Positions 20,938 to 38,313 of a DNA stretch of 64,000 nucleotides are shown here, in pieces. Made by a program: the position numbers and the translations under genes. The stretch is taken from NCBI GenBank assembly GCA_000004985.1, contig GG738847.1; one strand, 5' to 3'. Within the stretch, counting starts at the first letter, position 1; the number at the start of each line of letters is the position of its first letter. Source of the DNA: Naegleria gruberi (lineage: Eukaryota). The notes beneath the pieces were generated by a model that searched no databases, had not been told where the DNA came from, and was given only the letters and a program-made list of their open reading frames with translations.

Positions 20938-21135
20938 TTTTTTTTGTATTTTTTTATTTTTAAAATCAATTTCGTGTTCTTCACAAGTTCATAGTTATAT
21001 TAAATAGTGTTACAATACTGCAAGATTATACAATTTAATAGAAAATTACGTGTCCAACTCCATCTTTATTGGTTCTAATAAGAATCTGATGACTTGCTAT
21101 CCTTTTGCTTTGTTTACAATTTTCTTCAGAAAAAA

Positions 21136-22530
21136 ATGAAAAGATTTGGAGGAGGGATTGTTGCAGCTGGCTTACTGAAGAGTAATACTCTCACCTCAGC
21201 TAGGAATTGTAGAATGAAGAGTTTCGGAAAAAAGTCAAATAATATTATTAACAATAATAATGAATTGATGATGATGGCGAATAATTTCCAAAGACAATCA
21301 TTTCATTCTTCATTGTCTCATCATTATGCTAATCAAATATCCGATCAAATCAATGATGATCAAATGATAAAGAAAAATGGAAAAATTAAAATGATGGCCG
21401 AGATGATGTTGAATAAGAAGGGACAATTGAATGAAATGCTGGGAGTTAAAATTACAAAATTGAATATGGTGTTGAAGGAGGATCGATCAAATATTGATGA
21501 ATTGTTTGTGGAAATGTCCATGAAATTGAGTGATGTTCATATGAATGCTATTGGATTGGTTCATGGAGGTTCATTTGCAACATTGTGTGATACTGCTATT
21601 GGAACTGGTGCCTTGATTTTTGCAACACAATATTTGAAGGGAAGTGGAATGGTTGTATTGGATAATTTTAATCAATTCTTGAAGAGTGCAAGTGTTGGTG
21701 ATGAGCTTGTGGTTGTGGCAAAGCCATTGCATTTGGGAAAGTCGACACAATCATGGGAAGCTACTGTTTATTTGGGAAGCCCACCGAATGGTAAAAAGAT
21801 TGCTCTTTCAAGATCTACAATTTTGAATAAGGTAACCAGTGAGAGTGCTCAACAAAGCGAGACAGCAACATCCAATAGCAATGCTTCCAAAAAGTTGACA
21901 CCTGAAAATTTAAACAAACTTGGAAAGAATTTCAATATTGAAACCATGAGCAAGCAAGAAATTGCTGCCAAGTTTGACAAACATAGTGAGCAGTGGGAAT
22001 TTCTTACCTCAGTCTCTGATTATCAAAAGAATATGATTAGTTGGGTTGTCAATGAGTTGAAGCAATATGCTGATCAACAATTATCTTCTCCTCAATTCGC
22101 GAATGAAACATTCAAAGTTCTTGATTTGGCAACAGGAAATGGTCTTATTGGAAGATCAATTAATAATATAATTAGTCCACGTGTAAAGAAATTGGAAATG
22201 ACTGGTCTCGATCTCTCACAAGGAATGCTTAAAAAAGCAAAGGAATGGAATATTTACTCAAATTTATTTGTTCATGATTTGGATCAACCAATTAACAATC
22301 TCTCAACCAATGAATCATTCGATTTTATCACTTGCTTTGCAGTTAGTGAAATGTTAACAGATGTTGATAAGGTATTGCTGAGTGAAGTATCACGTCTCTT
22401 ATCAAGGAAACCTCATGCTCAGTGCTGGATTTCCTTCCAACTCAAAGATGAAGATGCCATTGCAACCGATCACCAAGGAATGAGAACCTATAATCTCTCT
22501 CAATTAAGCTTCCATGCTACAACAAAATAA
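21136..22530 (+). CDS. Fusion of a hotdog-fold thioesterase (PaaI/4HBT-like) and a class I SAM-dependent methyltransferase.
   Basis: Thioesterase motif NAIGLVHGGSFATLCDTAIGTGALIFA is followed by VLDLATGNGLIGRS...MTGLDLSQGMLKKA...FDFITCFAV (methyltransferase motifs I-III). First real ATG is at 21136; the track start at 21094 is TTG. Confidence 0.7.
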   Translation: MKRFGGGIVAAGLLKSNTLTSARNCRMKSFGKKSNNIINNNNELMMMANNFQRQSFHSSLSHHYANQISDQINDDQMIKKNGKIKMMAEMMLNKKGQLNEMLGVKITKLNMVLKEDRSNIDELFVEMSMKLSDVHMNAIGLVHGGSFATLCDTAIGTGALIFATQYLKGSGMVVLDNFNQFLKSASVGDELVVVAKPLHLGKSTQSWEATVYLGSPPNGKKIALSRSTILNKVTSESAQQSETATSNSNASKKLTPENLNKLGKNFNIETMSKQEIAAKFDKHSEQWEFLTSVSDYQKNMISWVVNELKQYADQQLSSPQFANETFKVLDLATGNGLIGRSINNIISPRVKKLEMTGLDLSQGMLKKAKEWNIYSNLFVHDLDQPINNLSTNESFDFITCFAVSEMLTDVDKVLLSEVSRLLSRKPHAQCWISFQLKDEDAIATDHQGMRTYNLSQLSFHATTK

Positions 22531-23136: not shown

Positions 23137-24240
23137 ATGCAACAACACATTTCAACTGCTGCCGTTTCCTCCTCATCACCAGCATCAGCAAATACATCTT
23201 CATTGAGTGGTGGTTTGAATCAGCTGCAGGGAGCCACCGGTGTTATGGGTGTTATGGGAAGGAGGCTATCTCTGAAAAGTTGTTCATCGGACTCGTCGAA
23301 TAATAGATTTTCGCAACAATTGGAGACGGAAGAAAAGGACAAGATTGAAAAATGGAAAGATAATTTGGAACACGAAAATCATATTTGTCCAATAAGTCAT
23401 ACATTGATGGTTGATCCTGTTGTTTTGGCTGATAGTGGAATTACGTATGAGAGAAGTTCGATTGAAAAGTGGTTGGAAAAGAGTAGAACTTGTCCGATTA
23501 GTAAGAAACGACTTGCTGGCAATGTGAATCAACTGATTCCTAATTATAGTACGAAGAATTTGATAGAGCAGGCTAAGGAAAAGTATTGTAACAAGTTGAT
23601 TGGCTTGTTGGAACAAAAGTTGGAGGACAAGAAAGGGATTGCTGATTGTCTTGATTTGATTGATAGTGATCTGTTGATTTATGTAGATAAGAATGAGAAG
23701 AGAACCATGTGGGAAAAGATCATGCTCATCAAGTTGAGAATGATGGTTCTGAAACGTGATTTGGAAATGTCGGGAAATCTTGATGAATGGTTCAACAAGT
23801 TGGAATATGAATTGTTGGAATCGACACATTTGATCATTAGAGAGGATTCATCAGCAATTTTTTCATTCGATAGTCATCAATTTAAATCTGTTAAACATAT
23901 GCTTGATCAATTAGAAACCAAATATGATACTACTCATGCACTGGCCTACCAACAAATTAAGAAACATCTCGATGAGGAGAATAAGAAACGAGAGGAATTT
24001 GAATACCGATACAGAATGAAACAATTCCAAAAAGCCAAACAAAAGGAGGAACGAAAAGTAAGGAGAGAAAGAGAGGCTGCCCTTCAAACAGCCAACAATG
24101 CTCAATCTGCCACAGAGGAACTTTCCACAACCCAATGGTTAGCTATGGGAGCAGGAATTTTAGGTGCTGGTGCTCTGATTGCTGTTGGATTATTCTCTGC
24201 ATTTAGCTCAGCATCTGGAAGAAATGATAGGAGAAAGTAG
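23137..24240 (+). CDS. U-box domain E3 ubiquitin ligase-like protein with a coiled coil and a C-terminal transmembrane anchor.
   Basis: U-box motif CPISHTLMVDPVVLADSGITYERSSIEKWLEKSRTCPISKKRL. The C-terminal hydrophobic segment is WLAMGAGILGAGALIAVGLFSAF. Confidence 0.7.
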   Translation: MQQHISTAAVSSSSPASANTSSLSGGLNQLQGATGVMGVMGRRLSLKSCSSDSSNNRFSQQLETEEKDKIEKWKDNLEHENHICPISHTLMVDPVVLADSGITYERSSIEKWLEKSRTCPISKKRLAGNVNQLIPNYSTKNLIEQAKEKYCNKLIGLLEQKLEDKKGIADCLDLIDSDLLIYVDKNEKRTMWEKIMLIKLRMMVLKRDLEMSGNLDEWFNKLEYELLESTHLIIREDSSAIFSFDSHQFKSVKHMLDQLETKYDTTHALAYQQIKKHLDEENKKREEFEYRYRMKQFQKAKQKEERKVRREREAALQTANNAQSATEELSTTQWLAMGAGILGAGALIAVGLFSAFSSASGRNDRRK

Positions 24241-27809: not shown

Positions 27810-29279
27810 ATGCTTGCACCACAGAAACGAGTTAGTGATTTTGGAGATGGTGGACAAATAGATCAAGTTCAAGTTGAAGAAACCACACCAAATCTTATAA
27901 CTTCCATCATACGATTGAAACAATTTCGCATCAAAGGACGATCATTTGAATTTCAAGAAGTGTTCGAAAATCCAAAAAGTGATACTTTGGTTTGTAAATG
28001 TTTGGGTGATGATGGACATGAATACGTTGTTAAAATTATTAAACTAATTGATGGAATATTTCCAAGTAATGATCCAAATGATACTTATTCAGATGGTTAT
28101 CAAGTAGGAGAATGGAGATTTGCTGAAACTGTGAAACAGTTGTTCGATTCTAGTGTGGTAACTTATGAGGTTTCGGAACTAATTGGTGAAGAAATTGTAC
28201 TTGTATCAGAATACAGAGGAATGGATATGAAAAAATATGGAAAGAACAAATCAGGAAAATTGTTTTTATGTGAAGCGATTCAAATTTTAATTAGAATTGC
28301 TAATGCATTATGCCAACTCTATAAGCATAATATAATTCATAGTGATATCAAACCTGCAAATATCTTTATTACTTTTGAGCCAACCAGTTATTCATTTGAT
28401 GTCATTGATGCTACATTGGGTGATTTGGGAATAGCCAGAACTGTTTTATCAAAAGGTCAGCCAATTTATTCATCTAATATATTTTCTACTCCTGATACTG
28501 CACACACATACTTAACACAGCACGGAACATGTGGTTATATTGCACCAGAATGTTTTAAAGGAGAACAATGTTTATTAAGTGCTGTGAAAAAAAATGGCTT
28601 CGCATTTGAATTTGTTGATGAATTATTAAGAAAAGATAGAGAAATTGTATTGGAAGCAGTTAAACAAAATGGATATGCACTTGAATATGCTGATAGGTCA
28701 TTTAGAAAAGATAGAGAAATTGTACTGGAAGCAGTTAAACAAAATGGACGTGCACTTGAATTTGTTGATGAATCATTAAGAAAAGATAGAGATATTGTAT
28801 TGGAAGCAGTTAAACAAAATGTCTGGGCACTTGAATGTGCTGATGAATCATTAAGAAAAGATAGAGAAATTGTATTGGAAGTAGTTAAATGAGATGGACG
28901 CGAACTTTGCTATGTTGATAAGTTATTAAGAAAAGATAGAGAAATTGTATTGGAAGCAGTTAAACAAAATGGCTGGGCACTTGAACATGTTGATAAATCA
29001 TTAAGAAAAGATAGAGAATTTGTATTGGAAGCAGTTAAACAAAATGGACGTGCACTTGAATATGCTGATGAATCATTGAGAAAAGATAGAGAATTTGTAT
29101 TGGAAGCAGTTAAACAAAATGGACATGCATTTGAATATGTTGATAAATCATTAAGAAAAGATAGAGAATTTGTATTGAAAGCAGTTAAACAAAATGGATG
29201 TGTATTTGAATATGTTGATGAGTCATTAAGAGAAATTATATTAGAAGCTGTCGTTAATGCTGAAACACAGAAATTATGA
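27810..29279 (+). CDS. Protein kinase with a C-terminal array of DUF4116-like 25-aa repeats. The reading frame carries an in-frame TGA at 28890..28892.
   Basis: Kinase motifs HSDIKPANIFI, DLGIAR and GTCGYIAPE. About nine repeats of the form REIVLEAVKQNGxALEYxDESLRKD follow. The same frame continues after the TGA for another 129 codons of repeats. Confidence 0.65.
28573..29250 (+). repeat. Coding tandem repeat with 75-bp period and about nine copies, near-identical at nucleotide level.
   Basis: The unit gaagcagttaaacaaaatgg...ttaagaaaagatagagaaattgtattg recurs directly. Confidence 0.8.
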
Positions 29280-29735: not shown

Positions 29736-32065
29736 ATGGGAAATCATCACACTAGTGGTTCATCAATGTTTGCATCGGTGAATGATCGTCAAGATGTGAT
29801 GAATCCGAGACAACGAAAACTTCAAGAACAACAATACGAAACTGACCAAGTTTCGAATGACGATGACGAAATGAACCAAGAATTGACTCGGATGGTCAAG
29901 GAACAGGAACAAGTCGATGAGAATGAAATTAAAAATGGTTTGCCATTTGGTGTAATTCTGTTAGGAAGTGCAGATTCAGGAAAGTGTAAGTTTGCAAATT
30001 CGAAACCTTTCTAATAATTTATTGGATGTAATTGGATGAATTTGAAATACATTTTCTAATAGCAACACTTTGGAATCGATGGAAACTACAAACTCAACCC
30101 TTGTCTCAATCAGAGAAGGTAGAATTTGCCAATTCCATCCTCACATATATTATTACATGTTTGAAACGATTACTTGATTTGGCAAAATCGACACTTTCCA
30201 AAGAAGATTATCAAAACTTGTATTCGAAACATGATTTCTCTATTGATTTGCTTTCTCAAATATCAGAATGTGGTTCAACTTTCGAATACTTATTTACGAA
30301 TCCCATTTCAAAGACGAAAATGCAATCTCTGTGGATTGATCATGATTTTATTGCACATTTACCAGCTCTCTTTATGGAACCATGTATTCAAGAGTTGTAT
30401 TTGAATCAATTTAAAGGTAAATCAGATTCGAATAATGATCATTCGAATCATCCTTACTTTCATTCGAATCAGATAGATGGCGAGGAAGGTATCGTCAATG
30501 AAATTCTATTAGGCAATTATCTGCACTACTTTTTACAAACACCTTCCTTCCTACAAGAATTATCCGAAACCTTTACACACTCTGCTGCCAACTCAATATT
30601 GAGAGATTATTCCACCTCTCCTTCAAGTGAATTGTTTTCGAAACCCATCCAATTAACTCTGAATGATATTCTCAAATCAAAGATTGTCACAACCTCAATC
30701 AACACTTTGAAATTTCAATTCTCTAAAAAATCAATCAGCACAAAAGTGATTAAAGTTATTGAGAAGAGAAAGAGAGGATTATCAGGAGCTGCTTTACCTA
30801 ATTCTGGAGTAGTTGCTTCTCCATCAGGTAATTGTCCAAATAATGAATCGATTCAAGTTCATGGAAAATGTGGAAATGTTGCAATTCCAAAATTGGTTTT
30901 GAATACAGTTCCAAAGGAGGAAAAGAGCTTGCTGCCAAAAAGTGCTCGTGGTAATTCCATGACTCCTAGAAGTAATAGTGTGAATAGTAAGCCAGTTTCA
31001 GTTTCCATTACTGCAAATGATGAGAGTGTGCAAAATTCACCACCAAAGAAGACAACCACAAAGAAATTGGTCGAATCGTTGGTTAGAAAACGATCAGGAA
31101 GCAATAATAATGCGAATGCAGCAACAACTAGCACTTCAACAAACTCAAAGGGTCCCTATTTAGTCATCTCTCCTGCAAATTCACCTCGTTCCTCAATTGC
31201 AAGTGAGGGATCTTCGTTTAGTCCATTGCTGGGAACTTCTCCATCGTCCTCATCAATGGGTATGCCTTCTCCTAATTTCAATCAGCAATCAAGTGGAAAT
31301 AATTCTGCCAACATGCAGAGTAGTTCAGGTTCGAGTGTTGTGAGGGCAATGCAAGAGAGTACATTCACTTTGGATTCATTTGAAAAGAAGAAATTACAAA
31401 AGTTTACAATACTAGATACTCCTGGAGTTATTTCTCAGAGAGATTTGGTCAGTATGACATTGAATGCATCAACTCGACCAACAGCAACATTTTCATTGAA
31501 GAGTGTAGTGTTTATGTGTTCATTGGCAGATTTTGATCTCACAACAATAGATGGAAAAGATGATAAAATTAAGAGATTGCATGACAGCTTGGCATTCTTT
31601 GAAAAGACACTTGTCATGTCAAATAATCTCAAAGAAATGAGAAGAATCCTTGTCTTTACTCATGTAGACGTTTTCGAGCATCGAATTCTCAATGAATTGA
31701 CCTCCCCAAAGAAGAAACAATTACTGGAATTGTTGGGAATTGCTGTCAATGAAGATGATTTGGAAAATTGTGAACTTGTTCACTTGACCTTCAAACACAT
31801 TGTCTCACTATTCGAAACTTTGGAAAAGAAGAATCCTCACAAGTACATTCTCGAATATTACGCCCTCAATATGATGGATACTAGAGATGTTTGCGAATTT
31901 ACCTACCACCTCACCATGAGAGATGGTTACACTAAAAAGGATTATCCATCCATGACTTCAATTAATGTCTATTCTTCACCAATAGTTTCTGGATGTGAAT
32001 ACGAGGTCATTCAAAATATCCAAATGGTCAATTCATTCTATGATATTTCTCTAATGTTCCAATAA
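29736..32065 (+). CDS. Highly divergent heterotrimeric G-protein alpha subunit-like protein. Two exons: 29736..29985 and 30063..32065.
   Basis: MGNHHT matches an N-myristoylation consensus. The P-loop-like GVILLGSADSGK|ST is split by a 77-nt intron (gtaagt at 29986 to aatag at 30062). The C-terminal region VVFMCSLADFDLTTIDGKDDKIKRLHDSLAFFEKTLVMSNNLKEMRRILVFTHVDVFEHRI aligns with the G-alpha block AIIFCVALSDYD...NRMHESMKLFDSI...ILFLNKKDLFEEKI. NKxD is changed to THVD and DVGGQ is not recognisable. A Ser/Asn-rich insert of about 300 aa is present. Confidence 0.65.
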
Positions 32066-32209: not shown

Positions 32210-34096
32210 TTAAAATTTCCTTAATTTTGATTTTGGTGTTAAATCTTCCTCAATTTCAACATCTTCATCTTCTTGACTACCATCTTCTCTGCATCGTTTC
32301 AGAGTATCAGCAAACTCCTCTTCCCAAGAATCTACTATAGCATATTCATTATCTTTCAATTCTCTTGAAAGTTTGAGAAGTGTTCGATCCAACAGGAGTC
32401 TATCAGATGCACAATTAATACTACTTGGATTGTTCATTATAGCTGTCTTGACAATTTCGTAATCATCTTGTAAATCCTCGTGAGCCCAATCCAAAGAAGT
32501 TCCCGAATTAGAAACTGCTGCCATTACAATTTCCCTATCACACTTGAATTCATCTGATACAAACTGCAAATTTGGTCCATATCCTTGAACTGCACAAAGT
32601 GTCACCTCTCTATCACGTACATTTTCCGTATTGCTTTCTGAAAATAACCATGGACATTTGTTAACTACTTGTAATGCTATTTCCTTAGTAACAAATTGTG
32701 GGTCAATAAATTGGAAGGAAAATAGCGATTGATTGAGTGCTGCTTGGACAATTTCCTCATTCTGATAATATGCAAATTCCAAGGCAAGTCCATTTTCAGA
32801 TACTGCTTTGAGAATAATATCAGGTCTATTTCTCAATCTATTATCGGCATATTGTAAAGCCAATCCACAATTAGAAACTGCTGTCACTACAATTTCATCA
32901 TCATCTTGCAGCTCTCCTGAGGTGTATCCCAGTGCCATTCCATAATTACTCACAGCAGCTAACAATACATCTCCATCATTCCTTATTTCCCTATGAGTGT
33001 AGCAAATAATCTCTCCATTCTCTTTAGCCAAATTCAATATGAAACTCTTAAAATCGGTTTTATCTGAGTGCACAAAGGCATACTGAATAGCTTCTGGGTT
33101 ATTTCTAATTGCCTCTGCTATTATCTCATCATCAACAAGATCAATATTAGCATACTCCAAAGATTCTCCATTATTTTGAACAGCTTGGAGTATCATTTCT
33201 CTTGTTTGATTTTCATCATTAATTAAACACAGCGCATTTCCATCATATTCTATTAATTTTTCAGACTCTTCGACAGGAAATCCTTCAACATTAATACTAT
33301 CAACTATTTCTCCAGAGTATTTCACAGACAACTTGGTTAATTCGATAATTTCAGAAAGAGACAAATCGTTAACATGTTGCAAATAGTATTGAGAATATGG
33401 ATGAACTTTCATGACTTCAACAAGAATTTCCTTTCCAATACAATTGCCCATAGTATCGTGACATAATCCAAGGTACAGAGCTACCTTATTACCCACTTGT
33501 CTATCTGTCACTGCTGTTGTAGTCTTAACGAATGGATTGTCATTAGCTCCCAGGATTACAATTGCATCACTTGTAACTTCTGAACCAAGATATTCCAAAG
33601 CCATGCCATTACTTTTAACTGCTTCTGTTGTAATTACCGTGTCCCAACATCCATTATTTTCAAAGACCTTAATGGCCATTCCATCCTCTTTAACAGCTTC
33701 CAATATTAAATCTTTTGTAATATATCTCCAATCCATATCCAAAATTAACATTCCATTCTGCTGAACTGCTCTTTTCCTCACTTTATGATGATTCTGTAAT
33801 CGTTGACTTGCTTTTAAATAAAAATCTCCGTGAAAATCAATATATTTTAGCATGACTTCCATATCATCACACAGTTTTTCTTCCATTTCCTCATCATTAC
33901 ACTGTTCAATCAGCAATTCCAAAGTAGAAGCATTTAACCCAGCCAAAGACAATGCATCAATCCGAAGCTTTTGATATTTTACTTGTCGTTCGCGAGAATT
34001 TTTCATAAATTTTCGGAGGAAATTGTAGGCTTGGCTGATGTGTTGATTCCCAGCATCAAAATCGATGAGATGAATGGAACAAGAAATTTCAGACAT
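32210..34096 (-). CDS. DUF4116-like repeat protein, 628 aa.
   Basis: Repeated units of the form (I/V)(L/V)xAVxxNGxALxYA...(L/R)xxDxE, e.g. DREIVMAAVSNSGTSLDWAHEDLQDDYEIV and RPDIILKAVSENGLALEFA. Confidence 0.6.
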   Translation of the reverse strand: MSEISCSIHLIDFDAGNQHISQAYNFLRKFMKNSRERQVKYQKLRIDALSLAGLNASTLELLIEQCNDEEMEEKLCDDMEVMLKYIDFHGDFYLKASQRLQNHHKVRKRAVQQNGMLILDMDWRYITKDLILEAVKEDGMAIKVFENNGCWDTVITTEAVKSNGMALEYLGSEVTSDAIVILGANDNPFVKTTTAVTDRQVGNKVALYLGLCHDTMGNCIGKEILVEVMKVHPYSQYYLQHVNDLSLSEIIELTKLSVKYSGEIVDSINVEGFPVEESEKLIEYDGNALCLINDENQTREMILQAVQNNGESLEYANIDLVDDEIIAEAIRNNPEAIQYAFVHSDKTDFKSFILNLAKENGEIICYTHREIRNDGDVLLAAVSNYGMALGYTSGELQDDDEIVVTAVSNCGLALQYADNRLRNRPDIILKAVSENGLALEFAYYQNEEIVQAALNQSLFSFQFIDPQFVTKEIALQVVNKCPWLFSESNTENVRDREVTLCAVQGYGPNLQFVSDEFKCDREIVMAAVSNSGTSLDWAHEDLQDDYEIVKTAIMNNPSSINCASDRLLLDRTLLKLSRELKDNEYAIVDSWEEEFADTLKRCREDGSQEDEDVEIEEDLTPKSKLRKF

Positions 34097-34486: not shown

Positions 34487-35434
34487 ATGTTTGTCGCAGT
34501 TACAGGAGCTTCAGGATATATTGCCGGACATATTGTTAAACAATTATTGGAAAATGGACATAGAGTGAGAGGTGTTGTCAGAGATTTATCAAACAAGAGC
34601 AAGTATGATTATTTGGAAAAGTTTGCAAACTTGGAAAATCAATTGGAATTTGTGCAAGTCAATGATCAAAATTATGAGAATGCATTTGTTGGAGTGGATG
34701 CTGTGATTCATACTGCTACTCCTTATATTTACACTGCTAAGGATCCACAGAAGGAGATTGTAGAACCAGCTGTCAATTTGACAAGAGGTGTGATTGAGGC
34801 TGCTCTTAAGAATCAAGTGAAGAGAGTTGTGATTACTTCTTCTGGAGGTGCAATTTTCAGTTTCCCAGTTCCACAAGGAAAGATCTTTACTAGCAATGAT
34901 TGGAATCTTCAAAGTAATCTCACTAATAATCCATATTTCTATTCCAAGAGATTGGCTGAAGAGGAAGCTTGGAGATTATATAAGGAAAATTCTGACAAGA
35001 TTGAAATTGTTGTTGTGAATCCAGTTTATGTTTTGGGACCAACTTTGAATCCATTTATCAATACCAGTGTTGAAAATTTGAAAAAGTACTTGTTGGGTGA
35101 ACATGAAACAGTTCAAGTTGGAGGAATTGCAATTGTTGATGTGAGAAATGTAGCAACAGCTCATGTATTGGCAGTGGAAAAGAAGGAAGCTGCTGGAAAG
35201 AGATTAATCTGTAGTGGACAAGTTTGTAATTGGTCCGATATTCCAAAAACTCTCAAACAACAATTCCCTCAATATGCTGTAAGCAAGTACACTGAATTCC
35301 CAGAAGCTACTACATATGGAATGGATACTCAACCACTCAAAGATTTGGGACTTGTTGAATATTATTCATTTGAGCAAACTATTAGGGATACTGTTGAATC
35401 TCTATTGGAACATAATTTGATCGAAAAGTTGTAA
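34487..35434 (+). CDS. NAD(P)-dependent epimerase/dehydratase-family reductase, cinnamoyl-CoA reductase / GRE2-like.
   Basis: Rossmann motif VTGASGYIAGHIVKQLLENGHRVRGVVRD. Catalytic YxxxK region YFYSKRLAEEEAW. Confidence 0.8.
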   Translation: MFVAVTGASGYIAGHIVKQLLENGHRVRGVVRDLSNKSKYDYLEKFANLENQLEFVQVNDQNYENAFVGVDAVIHTATPYIYTAKDPQKEIVEPAVNLTRGVIEAALKNQVKRVVITSSGGAIFSFPVPQGKIFTSNDWNLQSNLTNNPYFYSKRLAEEEAWRLYKENSDKIEIVVVNPVYVLGPTLNPFINTSVENLKKYLLGEHETVQVGGIAIVDVRNVATAHVLAVEKKEAAGKRLICSGQVCNWSDIPKTLKQQFPQYAVSKYTEFPEATTYGMDTQPLKDLGLVEYYSFEQTIRDTVESLLEHNLIEKL

Positions 35435-36159: not shown

Positions 36160-38313
36160 TTATTCAATTTGAATATTTCTAAGTAATTCTTGAATTTGAT
36201 AAACTTTTGTAAATTGATAACAAGGCAACGATTGGAAATATTTAATTTCCTTTACAATATCATACATTGATTCTCTCTTCATCCAATTAATAAATTCAAT
36301 TGAATTTGGTCCAATTACAAAATCATTTTGATTTTCTTCCACTAGAAATAAATCTCTTAAATGAAGTCTGACGTATGGAATGATTGATGTGTTTTCCTCA
36401 GATGATTCTTTGAGTGTTTGTCTGTATTCTTGGTAATTTGATTCTTCAGACATGAGTTGTTGGAATTTCATCTTGTTTGCTTGTTCTGATTGATTAATTT
36501 TTAAGGTTTTGACCTCGCCATATTCGAAAGCATTTAGGATAGCTTTGAGTGTGTTGAAATTATTCAATTTTTTCAAATGTTCACAAATTGAAATGCATCT
36601 CTTGATTGGATTTTTAGATTTTGGTTTACAAATTGAAAAACTAATCCATTTGGTGACATTTTCAAAATGAATTAACAATTTGTTGATATTTGGACATCTG
36701 TGTTTGAATTTCAAACGTTTCCATCCGAAACTCATTAATTCTTCCAATCCAATAGCGACAAACAAGTCATATTCATAAAGTGTTAATTGTCTTGCAATTT
36801 CCTCCTCATCTATATCATCCAATGAAAGAGTTTCACAGAAAATCTTTTGCATTGGCACTTTAGGTTCAATATAATTGACATTGACACTCGATGGATTTTT
36901 CTTTTCAGTGGATTGACCTTGTTCAATGTGTTGTAAAATATCCTTTCTCAATTTGATGAATTTAGGTGAGGAATTATTATGATTTTCATGGTTCAATAAC
37001 TTTTGCACCTTGGCAATCATGTTATTGGTGAAATGTTGCGAATGTTGTTCCATCCAATAGTGCAAGAATTTGAGAATTCCTGCCTGAATATTATTTTTCG
37101 ATTCTTGTGAATGATTCTTTGGCAAATTTTTGCATTTCTGAATGAGACGATTCAGAACAGTTTCGGCTGAAATCAGAGACAAGTAAGTATGAAGGAAAAC
37201 ATCCACAAATAGTGAACTCTGTTGATCTGTTGTTAAGGAGGTCAACTTTTCAAGAATTCTATTCAAAGTACCAGCTTGGAATTGTTCATATTTCTTAACT
37301 GGATCCACGTGGACAATTTCATTCTGACCTCCAACAATTTCCTTCCACTTACTCAAATTCTCCTTTTCAGATTCTGTCACATGTCCATATTCATTAATTC
37401 CCAAATCATTCAAACTTTCTTCCAATGCCTTCATAATTGAATTCTTATTCTTTTGTACATTGGCCGAATGTTGAAACTTGTCGAAAATGACCAAATCATG
37501 CAAACGTTCAGTTTTCTTCACTGCTTCCTTTGCCAATCCATGCAATAAACTCTGTTGAACATCAATATCCAAATACTTTCGTTTAGTTTCCTTTTCCAAT
37601 TCTGAAATAGTCCTCTTCAATCCTTCAAATCTCAAATGTTGCATCAAAATATTCAAAACAACATCTTCTGTTAAATTTTCTCTTACTTGTTTCTGACCTG
37701 CATTGTAAACTTCGCCAAATGAAATTGTTCTCCATAATGGATAGATTCTTTCTTGTAATTCTTGAATGACTGGATATTTCTCGAGAATTCTGTTTCTCCA
37801 TTTGGATTTATCTTCTGAATTTGATTTGGATGAGTCTTCGGATGGAGGAATAGTTTCGGTTGGAATAGTTTCAAGTGGTGGATTCGTTTCTGATTTTGAA
37901 CTTTCTGGAATTGCTTCAGGTTGTGATTCTTCTAAAGAAGCAGAAACTGGAAGTGAAGATGGAGAAATCAATGTGGAATTCAACAATGGACGAAACTCTT
38001 CAACATTCCAATGATCTTCATAAACATATCCTAAACTATTTTCGAATAATTTAACCGAATTGTATGGTTTCACCGAATCTTTCAAATTTTCTACATTCTC
38101 CACCACATTCTTCTTTGTAAATCCAATTCGAATAGGAATTTTGTCTTGAGAATTAAAATTTTCCTTTACAATTTTCACATTTTCCAAAATTTCCAATTCC
38201 ATTTCTGATCTTTCGAGTTTTGAATTATTTCCAGAACTGGACAAACTTGATCTCAACTTGAAAAGATTACTTCCAGGAGGTATTGGCAGTTGTGCATTAA
38301 AAGTTGGTGCCAT
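36160..38313 (-). CDS. Ras guanine nucleotide exchange factor (RasGEF N-terminal plus CDC25 catalytic domain) with a LisH-like motif. The N-terminus may extend to 38774.
   Basis: CDC25-type catalytic region (ARQLTLYEYDLFVAIGLEELMSFGW...IIPYVRLHLRDLFLVEENQNDF). The reading frame stays open upstream of the annotated Met and continues N/Q/S-rich. It is separated by a frame change from the ORF starting at 38774. Confidence 0.8.
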   Translation of the reverse strand: MAPTFNAQLPIPPGSNLFKLRSSLSSSGNNSKLERSEMELEILENVKIVKENFNSQDKIPIRIGFTKKNVVENVENLKDSVKPYNSVKLFENSLGYVYEDHWNVEEFRPLLNSTLISPSSLPVSASLEESQPEAIPESSKSETNPPLETIPTETIPPSEDSSKSNSEDKSKWRNRILEKYPVIQELQERIYPLWRTISFGEVYNAGQKQVRENLTEDVVLNILMQHLRFEGLKRTISELEKETKRKYLDIDVQQSLLHGLAKEAVKKTERLHDLVIFDKFQHSANVQKNKNSIMKALEESLNDLGINEYGHVTESEKENLSKWKEIVGGQNEIVHVDPVKKYEQFQAGTLNRILEKLTSLTTDQQSSLFVDVFLHTYLSLISAETVLNRLIQKCKNLPKNHSQESKNNIQAGILKFLHYWMEQHSQHFTNNMIAKVQKLLNHENHNNSSPKFIKLRKDILQHIEQGQSTEKKNPSSVNVNYIEPKVPMQKIFCETLSLDDIDEEEIARQLTLYEYDLFVAIGLEELMSFGWKRLKFKHRCPNINKLLIHFENVTKWISFSICKPKSKNPIKRCISICEHLKKLNNFNTLKAILNAFEYGEVKTLKINQSEQANKMKFQQLMSEESNYQEYRQTLKESSEENTSIIPYVRLHLRDLFLVEENQNDFVIGPNSIEFINWMKRESMYDIVKEIKYFQSLPCYQFTKVYQIQELLRNIQIE

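What the first reader, a model, noticed from the sequence alone, without database searches (positions are those of the whole stretch)
29736..32065. G-alpha-like protein with lost GTPase motifs and a 300-aa low-complexity insertion (pseudo-G-alpha)
The spliced product starts MGNHHT, a myristoylation-type start. It has a P-loop remnant GSADSGK|ST created only by joining two exons, and a C-terminal block that aligns convincingly with the G-alpha switch III/G4 region (VVFMCSLADFDL...RLHDSLAFFEKTL...ILVFTHVDVFEHRI versus IIFCVALSDYD...RMHESMKLFDSI...ILFLNKKDLFEEKI). NKKD is replaced by THVD and the DVGGQR switch II is unrecognisable. A large S/N-rich segment is inserted where the helical domain should be. 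This looks like a G-alpha paralog that kept membrane anchoring and fold but probably lost canonical nucleotide binding.
Basis: partly seen in the sequence, partly recalled or inferred. Interest (0 to 1): 0.6.

Follow-up and report, generated by a model that had tools for sequence, protein, structure and literature searches.

The report
Divergent G-alpha protein of Naegleria amoebae
This is a real, conserved gene of Naegleria and related amoebae for an unusual relative of the G-protein alpha subunit: it keeps the parts that hold GTP, has lost the two residues that cleave it, and carries a long floppy loop, so it is a modestly interesting natural "GTPase-dead" G-alpha rather than a protein that has lost its nucleotide pocket.

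Summary
The gene is real. Exon 1 is 29736-29985, a 77-nt phase-1 intron is 29986-30062, and exon 2 is 30063-32065. The 750-aa product is identical to the N. gruberi "predicted protein" NAEGRDRAFT_62161. It matches Pfam G-alpha (E 7.5e-25, 88 bits, cut-off 48.8), and its AlphaFold model matches solved G-alpha structures (TM 0.71-0.78).

- The helical domain is present (aa ~99-263).
- The 226-aa Ser/Asn-rich insertion (aa 304-529) sits in the beta2-beta3 hairpin of the Ras-like domain.
- The P-loop is a complete Walker A (GSADSGKS).
- The G3 motif is recognisable as DTPG.

What is lost is the catalytic Arg (Lys290), the catalytic Gln (Val539), the RGS-contact Gly (Ser295), the switch-II Lys-Trp, part of NKxD (THVD, Asp kept), TCAT, and the receptor-coupling end of alpha5.

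Orthologs with the same intron and motifs exist only in vahlkampfiid amoebae (N. fowleri, N. lovaniensis, Willaertia, two unnamed contigs). The C-terminal core is under strong purifying selection (dN/dS ~0.09).

It most likely binds nucleotide but cannot hydrolyse it, acting as a membrane-tethered adaptor. This parallels plant XLG proteins but arose independently. I rate it a new variant of a known kind, of modest interest.

The parts
29736..32065 (+). Whole gene NAEGRDRAFT_62161 (start codon to stop codon), 750-aa divergent G-alpha family protein
   Evidence: Spliced translation is 100% identical over 100% of its length to XP_002682208.1. Pfam G-alpha E=7.5e-25.
29736..29985 (+). Exon 1: MGNHHTS start (candidate N-myristoylation site), low-confidence N-terminus, alphaN helix (aa 24-66), beta1 and the first part of the P-loop up to GSADSGK plus the first base of the Ser84 codon
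   Evidence: AF2 secondary structure. The start motif is conserved in Nf, Nl and Willaertia.
29986..30062 (+). 77-nt phase-1 intron (GTAAGT...TAG) that splits the P-loop Ser/Thr codon
   Evidence: 24.7% GC against 36% for the CDS. An intron at the same position and phase is present in N. fowleri (182 nt), N. lovaniensis (62 nt) and the ENA contig L001.
30063..32065 (+). Exon 2, from the rest of the Ser84 codon to the stop codon
29964..30067 (+). G1/P-loop G77-S-A-D-S-G82-K83-S84-T85, interrupted by the intron; a complete GxxxxGK[ST] Walker A
   Evidence: MAFFT alignment to G-alpha-i1 G40-T48. G77, G82, K83 and T85 are nearly invariant in the 67-sequence alignment.
30107..30601 (+). All-helical domain (aa ~99-263), with a low-confidence loop at aa 208-232
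   Evidence: The Pfam match aa 47-316 covers profile positions 4-191. AF2 helices H99-H263 mostly have pLDDT 87-97. Foldseek alignments cover whole G-alpha chains.
30671..30718 (+). Switch I and beta2: L287-K-S-K290-I-V-T293-T294-S295-I296, then LKFQF. The Arg finger is replaced by Lys290, the Mg-binding Thr293 is kept, and the RGS-contact Gly is replaced by Ser295
   Evidence: In 102 conventional G-alphas the counts are R178 R 93 / K 4 and G183 G 84.
30722..31399 (+). 226-aa insertion (aa 304-529) in the beta2-beta3 hairpin: S 21%, N 10%, K 9%, net basic
   Evidence: The alignment places it between G-alpha-i1 F191 and L194. Composition. It is coding, not an intron: the chance of an open frame this long is 3.6e-8, and the other two frames hold 7 and 25 stops. 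Present in Nf, Nl, P0003 and Willaertia, absent in P0015.
30734..30790 (+). Conserved basic helix at the start of the insertion (aa 308-326, ISTKVIKVIEKRKRGLSGA), a signature of the clade members that carry the insertion
   Evidence: AF2 H308-326, pLDDT ~66-72. S307, I308, T310, V312, I313, V315, I316, E317, R319 and K320 are invariant in three orthologs. Willaertia has RSINTKVLQLIEKRKRELQ.
30893..31333 (+). Predicted disordered stretch of the insertion (aa 361-507, pLDDT <50)
   Evidence: dN/dS of the insertion is 0.53 for Nf vs Nl.
30929..30952 (+). Conserved island LLPKSARG (aa 373-380) inside the disordered loop
   Evidence: L373-R379 are invariant in Ng, Nf and P0003. Nl has LLPKSARG and Willaertia has LIPKSPR.
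31082..31102 (+). Conserved island VRKRSGS (aa 424-430), a basophilic-kinase-type candidate phosphosite
   Evidence: V424, R425, K426, R427, S428 and S430 are invariant in Ng, Nf and P0003, and also present in Nl. The kinase-site reading is inference.
31400..31441 (+). beta3 and G3/switch II start: KFTILD535-T-P-G538-V539-I-S-Q-R543. DxxG is kept, and the catalytic Gln position holds Val
   Evidence: Q204 is Q in 87 of 102 conventional G-alphas. The clade has V/L/L/I, Q in Willaertia and W in P0015. AF2 E530-535, pLDDT >90.
31658..31669 (+). G4 motif T616-H617-V618-D619 in place of NKxD; the guanine-specifying Asp is kept
   Evidence: N269 N 96 / T 6; K270 K 100; D272 102 of 102. Willaertia and P0015 have TK[IV]D.
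31859..31918 (+). beta6/G5 region Y683-A-L-N-M-M-D689 in place of the TCATD-type motif, then a shortened alpha5 (aa 690-702)
   Evidence: A326 is A in 78 of 102; the clade has M/L/L/L/V/L. AF2 E680-684 and H690-702.
31919..32062 (+). Clade-specific C-terminal extension (aa 703-750) replacing the receptor-coupling end of alpha5. It contains a confidently predicted extra strand (aa 716-721) and the conserved SP-x-V-x-G and F-x-D-[IV] motifs
   Evidence: Alignments. AF2 pLDDT is 89-94 for aa 701-720 and <50 for aa 731-746 and 748-750.

Best explanation
The locus is a real two-exon gene (NAEGRDRAFT_62161) for a very divergent member of the G-alpha family. The clade is found only in vahlkampfiid heterolobosean amoebae.

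Shown:
- It has the complete G-alpha architecture: alphaN helix, Ras-like domain and helical domain.
- It keeps the phosphate- and Mg2+-binding residues (Walker A GSADSGKS, switch-I Thr293, D535xxG538) and the guanine-reading Asp619.
- It has replaced both catalytic residues (Arg178 -> Lys290, Gln204 -> Val539), the RGS-contact Gly183 (-> Ser295), the switch-II Lys-Trp pair, Asn-Lys of NKxD (-> Thr-His) and TCAT (-> LNMM).
- The C-terminal half of alpha5 is replaced by a clade-specific tail.
- A 226-aa insertion sits in the beta2-beta3 hairpin. It starts with a conserved basic helix and continues as a disordered Ser/Asn/Pro/Lys-rich loop that holds small conserved islands (IPKL, LLPKSARG, VRKRSxS).
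- The gene is under purifying selection.

Inferred:
- The protein is N-myristoylated and sits on a membrane.
- It still binds a guanine nucleotide but hydrolyses it very slowly or not at all.
- It is not switched off by RGS proteins, and it is not driven by receptors through the alpha5 tail.
- It therefore acts as a nucleotide-loaded, essentially static G-alpha-like adaptor. Its regulation has moved to the long loop, probably through phosphorylation of the basic Ser-rich islands.

Functionally this parallels plant extra-large G proteins and the Q204L/R178C GTPase-deficient mutants of G-alpha-i1.
For: Gene model and identity.

Family and fold:
- Pfam G-alpha 88 bits, E=7.5e-25. The full-length clade members and P0015 pass Pfam's cut-off (67-125 bits); the two Willaertia half-models score 33.5 and 37.2 bits, E 3e-8 and 2e-9.
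- AF2 has 237 residues at pLDDT >=90, with both domains.
- The Foldseek top 50 hits are all G-alpha, with target-normalised TM 0.68-0.78, including N. fowleri G-alpha7 6ne6.

Motifs: residue map against a G-alpha-i1 sequence verified against the PDB, with frequencies in 102 conventional G-alphas.

The gene is real and constrained:
- Orthologs exist in N. fowleri, N. lovaniensis, Willaertia magna and two ENA contigs.
- The phase-1 intron is at the identical position.
- There is partial synteny with an epimerase gene.
- dN/dS is 0.09 for beta3-to-end, 0.33 for the N-terminal core and 0.53 for the insertion.
- P-loop, Thr/Ser, DxxG and the G4 Asp are invariant in every clade member that covers them (DxxG is ESPG in P0015), while their neighbours vary.

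Consequences of the substitutions, from the literature:
- Q204L and R178C make G-alpha-i1 GTPase-deficient, and G183S abolishes RGS binding (PMC10996109).
- XLG2, which binds nucleotide poorly, has lost the P-loop Lys and the G3 Asp, unlike this protein (bioRxiv 10.1101/795088).
Against: - No biochemistry exists for any clade member, and no paper mentions these genes.
- G4 (THVD) and G5 (bulky Met/Leu at the Ala326 position) are altered. The XLG2 paper argues that a bulky residue at A326 clashes with the nucleotide, so binding could be weak or lost.
- Lys290 might partly substitute for the Arg finger. Willaertia keeps the Gln, so some hydrolysis cannot be excluded.
- dS between the two closest species is ~1-1.4, near saturation, so the dN/dS values are rough.
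- The AF2 alignment contained conventional G-alphas, so the fold is partly inherited from them.
- Myristoylation, membrane binding and loop phosphorylation are inferred from sequence patterns only.
- No expression data for the N. gruberi gene were available.
Confidence: 0.55

Rival explanations
1. Nucleotide-free pseudo-G-alpha: the fold and membrane anchor are kept, the altered G4/G5 base-binding elements no longer hold a guanine nucleotide, and the protein acts purely as a scaffold or decoy, like Arabidopsis XLG2.
For: - NKxD is THVD. N269 is N in 96 and K270 is K in 100 of 102 conventional G-alphas.
- The Ala326 position holds Met/Leu/Val across the clade.
- A bulky residue at A326 is argued to clash with the nucleotide in XLG2.
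- The helical-domain residues aligned with D150/S151 also differ.
Against: - The full Walker A, the switch-I Thr/Ser, DxxG and the G4 Asp are invariant in the clade members that cover them, in a region with dN/dS ~0.09.
- In XLG2 exactly these residues have decayed: K46 -> A and D200 -> R.
- The more basal clade members have TKxD, which from general knowledge is the form of G4 found in GTP-binding dynamins.
- A pocket that binds nothing has no obvious reason to keep five separate ligand-contact residues.
Confidence: 0.22
2. Still an active GTPase that uses different catalytic machinery. Candidates are Lys290 as a weaker finger, the downstream Gln542 of the conserved SQR, a partner that supplies residues in trans, or a HAS-GTPase-like mechanism in which a hydrophobic residue replaces the catalytic Gln.
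For: - G3 reads DTPG followed by a hydrophobic residue (V/L/L/I), the pattern of HAS-GTPases such as Era, FeoB and YqeH, which do hydrolyse GTP (PMC2848588 and bioRxiv 10.1101/2020.08.16.253419).
- A weak Pfam MMR_HSR1 match covers this stretch in both N. gruberi and N. fowleri (18 bits, E=0.003).
- Willaertia keeps DSPGQ, and S541-Q542-R543 is invariant.
Against: - The MMR_HSR1 match is below its gathering score (21.9) and short.
- The overall homology is unambiguously G-alpha.
- No other feature of the Era-type (MMR_HSR1) families surfaced beyond this sub-threshold match; their cation-binding elements were not specifically examined.
- In G-alpha-i1, single changes at R178 or Q204 are enough to cripple hydrolysis, and here both are changed together.
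Confidence: 0.18
3. Not a functional gene: a decaying pseudogene or an annotation artefact in which an unspliced intron or non-coding low-complexity DNA is read as protein.
For: - The only names it carries are 'predicted protein' and 'uncharacterized protein'.
- It contains a long low-complexity segment.
- Gene models of the orthologs are inconsistent: Willaertia is split in two, P0003 lacks exon 1, and one N. fowleri annotation has a 1344-aa fused model.
Against: - Intact reading frames exist in at least five genomes or contigs, with the same intron position.
- dN/dS is 0.09-0.53.
- The 226-codon insertion is open with chance probability 3.6e-8, while the other frames hold 7 and 25 stops. Its GC (39%) is that of coding sequence, not of the intron (25%).
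- Conserved peptide islands lie inside the insertion.
Confidence: 0.03

Closest known systems
Canonical heterotrimeric G-protein alpha subunits (Pfam PF00503; e.g. human G-alpha-i1, N. fowleri G-alpha7 PDB 6NE6)
   Same: - Homologous over the whole length: alphaN, Ras-like domain with an inserted helical domain, Walker A, switch-I Thr, DxxG, the G4 Asp and the beta4-alpha3-beta5 block.
- An MG... N-terminus.
   Different: - Arg finger -> Lys, and catalytic Gln -> Val.
- G183 -> Ser, and K210/W211 -> Leu/Val. Bosch et al. report that this Trp is conserved in all 13 N. fowleri G-alphas they studied.
- NKxD -> THVD, and TCAT -> LNMM.
- A 226-aa insertion in the beta2-beta3 hairpin, and 9 extra residues before beta4.
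- alpha5 is truncated and followed by a new ~48-aa tail.
- It scores only 40-60 bits against any conventional G-alpha, even with a clade profile.
Plant extra-large G proteins (Arabidopsis XLG1-3; 'decoy' G-alpha XLG2)
   Same: An atypical G-alpha-family protein that has lost both the catalytic Arg and the catalytic Gln and has a bulky residue at the A326 position. It is much longer than a normal G-alpha. This is the best precedent for a G-alpha-like protein working without a GTPase cycle.
   Different: - It arose independently, in Heterolobosea rather than plants, and showed no closer affinity to any particular conventional G-alpha group in the searches; no XLG sequence was compared.
- The extra length is an internal loop, not an N-terminal Cys-rich extension.
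- The P-loop Lys and the G3 Asp/Gly are kept here, whereas XLG2 has lost them.
GTPase-deficient and RGS-insensitive mutants of G-alpha-i1 (Q204L, R178C, G183S)
   Same: The natural sequence carries substitutions at all three positions (V539, K290, S295). The mutants remain nucleotide-binding, constitutively active and, for G183S, blind to RGS proteins (PMC10996109).
   Different: - The substitutions are not identical (R -> K rather than R -> C).
- They come with many other changes in switch II, G4 and G5, so the mutant behaviour cannot simply be transferred.
N. fowleri G-alpha6, a G-alpha with a low-complexity insertion (Bosch, Jeck & Siderovski 2022, PMC9283941)
   Same: A Naegleria G-alpha with a low-complexity polypeptide insertion, which shows that such loops are tolerated in this lineage. 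Deleting the loop abolished activation.
   Different: - The Nf G-alpha6 insertion is ~75 aa and lies N-terminal to switch I, i.e. in the helical domain. Here it is 226 aa and lies after beta2.
- Nf G-alpha6 was activated by aluminium fluoride (AMF), the transition-state mimic, and is one of the 13 G-alphas reported to keep the switch-II Trp.

Membership tests
G-alpha homologous family (Pfam PF00503) | Significant match to the family profile above the curated gathering score | tested here: met
   88.2 bits against a cut-off of 48.8, E=7.5e-25. Orthologs score 67-125 bits.
G-alpha homologous family (Pfam PF00503) | Ras-like GTPase domain with an all-helical domain inserted between alpha1 and switch I, preceded by an alphaN helix | tested here: met
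   AF2 elements H24-66, E71-77, H83-94, helices 99-263 and E297-302 onward. Foldseek top hits are all G-alpha, target-normalised TM 0.68-0.78. Caveat: conventional G-alphas were in the AF2 alignment.
Canonical G-alpha GTPase switch | G1 Walker A GxxxxGK[ST] | tested here: met
   G77-SADS-G82-K83-S84.
Canonical G-alpha GTPase switch | Switch-I Mg2+-binding Thr (T181 of G-alpha-i1) | tested here: met
   T293; Thr or Ser in all clade members.
Canonical G-alpha GTPase switch | Switch-I catalytic Arg (R178) | tested here: not met
   K290, and Lys in all six clade members. Arg in 93 of 102 conventional G-alphas.
Canonical G-alpha GTPase switch | G3 DxxG | tested here: met
   D535-T-P-G538.
Canonical G-alpha GTPase switch | Catalytic Gln after DxGG (Q204) | tested here: not met
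   V539 (L, L, I in the close orthologs; Q only in Willaertia). Gln in 87 of 102 conventional G-alphas.
Canonical G-alpha GTPase switch | G4 NKxD | tested here: not met
   T616-H617-V618-D619; only the Asp is kept.
Canonical G-alpha GTPase switch | G5 (T)CA(T) with a small residue at A326 | tested here: not met
   L685-N686-M687-M688. The alignment in this short stretch could be shifted by a residue or two.
Canonical G-alpha GTPase switch | Switch-II Lys-Trp (K210/W211) and Gly183, which contact G-beta-gamma, RGS proteins and effectors | tested here: not met
   L545/V546 and S295. Trp in 100 of 102 and Gly in 84 of 102 conventional G-alphas.
Canonical G-alpha GTPase switch | Full-length alpha5 helix with a C-terminal receptor-coupling tail | tested here: not met
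   AF2 predicts alpha5 as aa 690-702 only, followed by an unrelated, clade-conserved extension.
Canonical G-alpha GTPase switch | Binds GTP/GDP, hydrolyses GTP, and binds G-beta-gamma | not testable with these tools
   Needs recombinant protein.
Canonical G-alpha GTPase switch | N-terminal lipid modification (myristoyl on Gly2) | tested here: inconclusive
   MGNHHTS fits the pattern G-{EDRKHPFYW}-x(2)-[STAGCN]-{P} (pattern recalled from general knowledge). It is kept in Nf, Nl and Willaertia, but the L001 ortholog has Phe at position 6. The modification itself is not testable here.
Plant extra-large G proteins (XLG) | Long N-terminal extension (Cys-rich, with a nuclear localisation signal) fused to a C-terminal G-alpha-like domain; plant lineage | tested here: not met
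   The N-terminus before alphaN is only ~23 aa with no Cys. The extra length is an internal loop, and the distribution is heterolobosean only. It resembles XLG in function at most.
HAS-GTPases (Era/EngA/FeoB/YqeH type) | Hydrophobic residue in place of the catalytic Gln | tested here: met
   V539 after DTPG. Definition from PMC2848588 and bioRxiv 10.1101/2020.08.16.253419.
HAS-GTPases (Era/EngA/FeoB/YqeH type) | Homology to those TRAFAC families (e.g. Pfam MMR_HSR1 above threshold) | tested here: not met
   18.1 bits against a cut-off of 21.9, E=0.003, over a short stretch only.

The most novel reading that the evidence does not exclude
A G-alpha lineage that has changed how it works rather than simply decaying. 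One reading is the first G-alpha that hydrolyses GTP by a HAS-GTPase-like route (DTPG plus a hydrophobic residue), independent of Gln and Arg. The other is a permanently GTP-loaded, receptor- and RGS-independent membrane adaptor whose on/off control has moved entirely to phosphorylation of a 226-aa loop in the beta2-beta3 hairpin. Either would have evolved independently of plant XLGs in the amoeba lineage that includes the brain-eating N. fowleri.
Probability: 0.12. Interest if true: 0.65.

Novelty: new variant of a known kind. Interest (0 to 1): 0.35.

Why it matters
- G-alpha proteins are the textbook GTPase switch. Natural family members that keep the nucleotide pocket but drop both catalytic residues are rare, and the main precedent is the plant XLG group.
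- An independent case, conserved across Naegleria and Willaertia, would show that "non-cycling" G-alpha adaptors evolved more than once.
- It would also give a natural experiment on which G-alpha features matter once the GTPase cycle is gone.
- The N. fowleri ortholog (FDP41_007793) does not appear to be among the 13 G-alphas studied biochemically. That is inferred from the statement that the switch-II Trp is conserved in all 13, so it is an unexamined part of the pathogen's G-protein system.
- This is a divergent paralog in a genome already known for a lineage-specific G-alpha expansion (PMC3971589). It is a useful footnote, not a surprise that changes the field.

Tried and rejected
1. Word-indexed homolog searches, with the full protein and with a trimmed two-species alignment, returned only near-orthologs. 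Low-complexity words and the E-value scale of a 5.8-billion-sequence database hid the conventional G-alphas. The exhaustive HMMER search solved this.
2. P0006, a 6,523-aa hit with ten matched stretches (82 bits), is a bacterial giant repeat protein of the adhesin type. I judged it a summed chance match, not a relative.
3. The Pfam MMR_HSR1 match over the DTPG region is sub-threshold. I kept it only as weak support for a rival.
4. Pseudogene or unspliced-intron explanations were rejected.
5. I tried to establish whether the N. fowleri ortholog is one of the 13 G-alphas of Bosch et al. The supplementary table uses AmoebaDB NF identifiers that cannot be mapped here, and the alignment figure is not held. 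Only an indirect argument from the switch-II Trp remains.
6. Literature searches for the gene identifiers found nothing.
7. Gene neighbourhood gave no functional clue. The flanking genes (DUF4116 repeat proteins, an epimerase, a RasGEF) are unrelated, and only the epimerase is syntenic.
8. I did not use the second structure job or further fold searches. Model coordinates cannot be inspected here, so they would not have shown where the C-terminal strand docks.
Full report
**1. What is in the sequence**

The window is AT-rich (33.4% GC) and eukaryotic. An ATG at 29736 opens a frame that ends in GSADSGK at 29984. A GTAAGT donor follows one base later, and a TAG acceptor ends at 30062. Removing this 77-nt, 24.7%-GC, phase-1 intron joins the T at 29985 to the CA at 30063-30064, giving Ser84. 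The frame then continues to the TAA at 32063-32065. The product is 750 aa. It is identical over its full length to the annotated N. gruberi "predicted protein" XP_002682208.1 / EFC49464.1 / NAEGRDRAFT_62161 / UniProt D2V041.

**2. Is it a G-alpha?**

Yes.
- Pfam G-alpha (PF00503) matches at 88.2 bits, E=7.5e-25, against a gathering score of 48.8.
- phmmer against the PDB finds only G-alpha chains.
- An AlphaFold2 model was built on a 67-sequence alignment. It has mean pLDDT 68 and pTM 0.65, with 237 residues at pLDDT >=90.
- The model contains alphaN (24-66), beta1 (71-77), alpha1 (83-94), an all-helical domain (helices 99-263), beta2 (297-302), beta3 (530-535), alpha2 (540-553), beta4 (561-570), alpha3, beta5 (610-616), alpha4, beta6 (680-684) and alpha5 (690-702).
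- The 50 best Foldseek matches in the PDB are all G-alpha subunits, with target-normalised TM-scores of 0.68-0.78. They include N. fowleri G-alpha7, 6NE6.
- One caveat: conventional G-alphas were in the alignment given to AlphaFold, so the fold is partly inherited from them.

**3.

I aligned the protein with its orthologs, 102 conventional G-alphas, and a human G-alpha-i1 sequence that I first verified as identical to the PDB chains.

- The helical domain is present. The Pfam match of aa 47-316 covers profile positions 4-191.
- The Ser/Asn-rich segment is 226 aa (aa 304-529, window 30722-31399). It lies between beta2 and beta3 of the Ras-like domain, at the position of the K192-D193 turn of G-alpha-i1.
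- The P-loop G77-SADS-G82-K83-S84-T85 is a complete GxxxxGK[ST] motif, not a remnant.
- G3 is clearly recognisable as D535-T-P-G538, followed by the invariant S541-Q542-R543.

Kept residues (G-alpha-i1 numbering first):

| G-alpha-i1 | This protein | Role |
|---|---|---|
| G40, G45, K46, S47, T48 | G77, G82, K83, S84, T85 | P-loop |
| T181 | T293 | Mg2+ binding |
| D200, G203 | D535, G538 | G3 (DxxG) |
| R208 | R543 | switch II |
| D272 | D619 | reads the guanine base |

Replaced residues, with counts in the 102 conventional G-alphas:

| G-alpha-i1 | This protein | Conventional panel |
|---|---|---|
| R178 (Arg finger) | K290 | R 93, K 4 |
| Q204 (catalytic Gln) | V539 | Q 87 |
| G183 (RGS contact) | S295 | G 84 |
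| K210 / W211 | L545 / V546 | W 100 |
| N269 / K270 | T616 / H617 | N 96 / K 100 |
| T324-C-A-T327 | L-N-M-M | A326: A 78 |

alpha5 is short and is followed by an unrelated extension of about 48 aa. That extension includes a confidently predicted strand at aa 716-721.

**4. Relatives**

I searched a three-ortholog profile with HMMER against 1.84 billion representative proteins.
- Only four hits reached E<=1e-30: N. fowleri FDP41_007793, N. lovaniensis C9374_007047, an unnamed ENA protein, and an exon-1 fragment.
- Next came Willaertia magna, whose ortholog is split into two adjacent gene models (ABK040_002243 and ABK040_002242), and P0015, a 437-aa ENA protein that lacks the insertion.
- After those, scores drop to 40-60 bits for ordinary G-alphas. 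In total 206 hits had E<=1e-3.
- All named members are vahlkampfiid heteroloboseans, and all are labelled hypothetical.
- The full-length members and P0015 pass Pfam's G-alpha cut-off; the two Willaertia half-models match below it (E ~1e-8).

Motif states across the clade:
- Every member has Lys at the Arg-finger position, Leu-Val or Leu-Ala at K210/W211, Thr at N269 and Asp at D272.
- Every member with a complete N-terminus has the Walker A motif.
- The Naegleria-like members have DTPG followed by V, L or I, and THVD.
- Willaertia has DSPGQ and TKID. P0015 has ESPGW and TKVD.
- Loss of the Arg finger and of the switch-II Trp is therefore old in the clade. Loss of the Gln and of the G4 Lys came later, in the Naegleria branch.

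**5. Is it a working gene?**

- The phase-1 intron that splits the Ser/Thr codon after GK is at the same position in N. gruberi, N. fowleri (182 nt), N. lovaniensis (62 nt) and ENA contig L001.
- An epimerase / 3-beta-HSD gene lies immediately downstream in N. fowleri and N. lovaniensis. In N. gruberi it lies one gene further away.
- Nei-Gojobori dN/dS between N. fowleri and N. lovaniensis:

| Region | dN/dS |
|---|---|
| beta3 to C-terminus | 0.09 |
| N-terminal core | 0.33 |
| Insertion | 0.53 |

- dS is about 1-1.4, near saturation, so these numbers are rough. The ranking is still clear.
- The insertion is coding. A 226-codon open frame has a chance probability of 3.6e-8 at this base composition, and the other two frames contain 7 and 25 stops. 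Its GC (39%) is that of coding sequence.
- The insertion contains islands that are invariant across species: the helix SISTKVIKVIEKRK (aa 307-320), IPKL, LLPKSAR and VRKRSxS.

**6. The insertion**

It is 21% Ser, 10% Asn and 9% Lys. Ser, Thr, Asn, Pro and Gly together make up 51%, against 29% in the rest of the protein. It has 29 Lys+Arg against 11 Asp+Glu. AlphaFold predicts a helix at aa 308-326 (pLDDT ~66-72), a weak hairpin at 346-359, disorder from 361 to 507 (pLDDT ~30) and a short helix at 522-527 before beta3. From general knowledge of G-alpha/receptor structures, the beta2-beta3 hairpin lies on the membrane- and receptor-facing side of G-alpha. A basic, Ser-rich loop there could touch the membrane or be phosphorylated. 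This is inference.

**7. How it most likely works**

The phosphate and Mg2+ site and the base-reading Asp are under strict conservation, while both catalytic residues are gone. In G-alpha-i1, Q204L or R178C alone gives a GTPase-deficient, constitutively active protein, and G183S abolishes RGS binding (PMC10996109). Arabidopsis XLG2 binds nucleotide very weakly, and it has lost the P-loop Lys and the G3 Asp as well as the catalytic pair (bioRxiv 10.1101/795088). This protein has not lost those two.

The best reading is therefore a myristoylated G-alpha-like protein that still loads a guanine nucleotide, barely hydrolyses it, ignores RGS proteins and is not coupled to receptors through alpha5. 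It would work as a static adaptor controlled through its loop. I give this about 0.55.

The rivals are:
- a nucleotide-free scaffold, because THVD and a bulky residue at the A326 position may spoil base binding (0.22);
- a GTPase with alternative catalysis, because DTPG plus a hydrophobic residue is the HAS-GTPase pattern and a sub-threshold MMR_HSR1 match covers that stretch (0.18);
- an artefact or pseudogene (0.03).

Only biochemistry can separate the first three.

**8. Comparison with what is known**

By descent this is a member of the G-alpha family. It fails six defining features of a canonical G-alpha switch: the Arg finger, the catalytic Gln, NKxD, TCAT, the switch-II Lys-Trp with Gly183, and the alpha5 tail. 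It should therefore not be filed as a conventional G-alpha subunit.

- It resembles plant XLGs in what it may do, but it is not one of them. It comes from a different lineage, has no N-terminal extension and has an intact P-loop.
- Naegleria is already known for a lineage-specific G-alpha diversification (PMC3971589).
- N. fowleri G-alpha6 also carries a low-complexity loop, at a different site (PMC9283941).
- That study reports a switch-II Trp conserved in all 13 N. fowleri G-alphas it examined. This suggests the ortholog of this gene was not among them, but I could not verify that.
- No paper in the library mentions the gene identifiers.

**9. Verdict**

The finding is a real, conserved and uncharacterised variant of a known protein family, with an independent loss of the catalytic machinery. 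It is of modest interest (0.35).

Noticed in passing
window 27810-29279 (+) and 32210-34096 (-): The G-alpha-like gene is flanked on both sides by DUF4116-repeat proteins. The upstream one (27810-28892) also has a partial protein-kinase domain, and its repeats seem to continue in the ORF at 28950-29279. The downstream one has 8 DUF4116 repeats.
   Followed up: partly
window 34487-35434 (+); L002 8961-10434 (-); L003 8613-9944 (-): An epimerase / 3-beta-HSD gene is the immediate downstream neighbour of the ortholog in N. fowleri and N. lovaniensis. In N. gruberi it is separated by the DUF4116 gene and lies on the other strand, which points to a local rearrangement or insertion in N. gruberi.
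   Followed up: partly
window 36160-38313 (-): A 717-aa RasGEF protein (RasGEF_N plus RasGEF domains) lies about 4 kb downstream. It is another small-GTPase signalling gene, but nothing links it to the G-alpha-like gene.
   Followed up: no
window 21094-22530 (+) and 23137-24240 (+): One ORF combines a 4HBT thioesterase domain with a methyltransferase domain, and the next gene encodes a U-box protein.
   Followed up: no
Willaertia magna ABK040_002243 / ABK040_002242 (P0007, P0008); L001 1280-3515; N. fowleri CAG4713844.1 (P0157): Public gene models of the orthologs are inconsistent. Willaertia is split into two adjacent genes inside the insertion. The ENA call for P0003 lacks exon 1, which was called as a separate 101-aa gene at L001 1280-1585. 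One N. fowleri annotation has a 1344-aa fused model.
   Followed up: partly
P0015 (ENA contig of 2271 bp): This is a more distant clade member with Lys at the Arg-finger position, ESPGW and TKVD, and the same type of C-terminal tail, but no beta2-beta3 insertion. The insertion may therefore be younger than the loss of the Arg finger. The source organism is unknown.
   Followed up: partly
P0006 (ENA, 6523 aa): A giant bacterial repeat protein of the adhesin type scored 82 bits against the clade profile through ten repeated weak matches to profile positions 665-711. I judged it a summed chance match.
   Followed up: yes
window aa 551-560 of the product (about 31463-31492): A 9-residue extra segment (STRPTATFS) before beta4 is present in the Naegleria-like orthologs but absent in Willaertia, P0015 and conventional G-alphas. 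AF2 gives it lower confidence.
   Followed up: no
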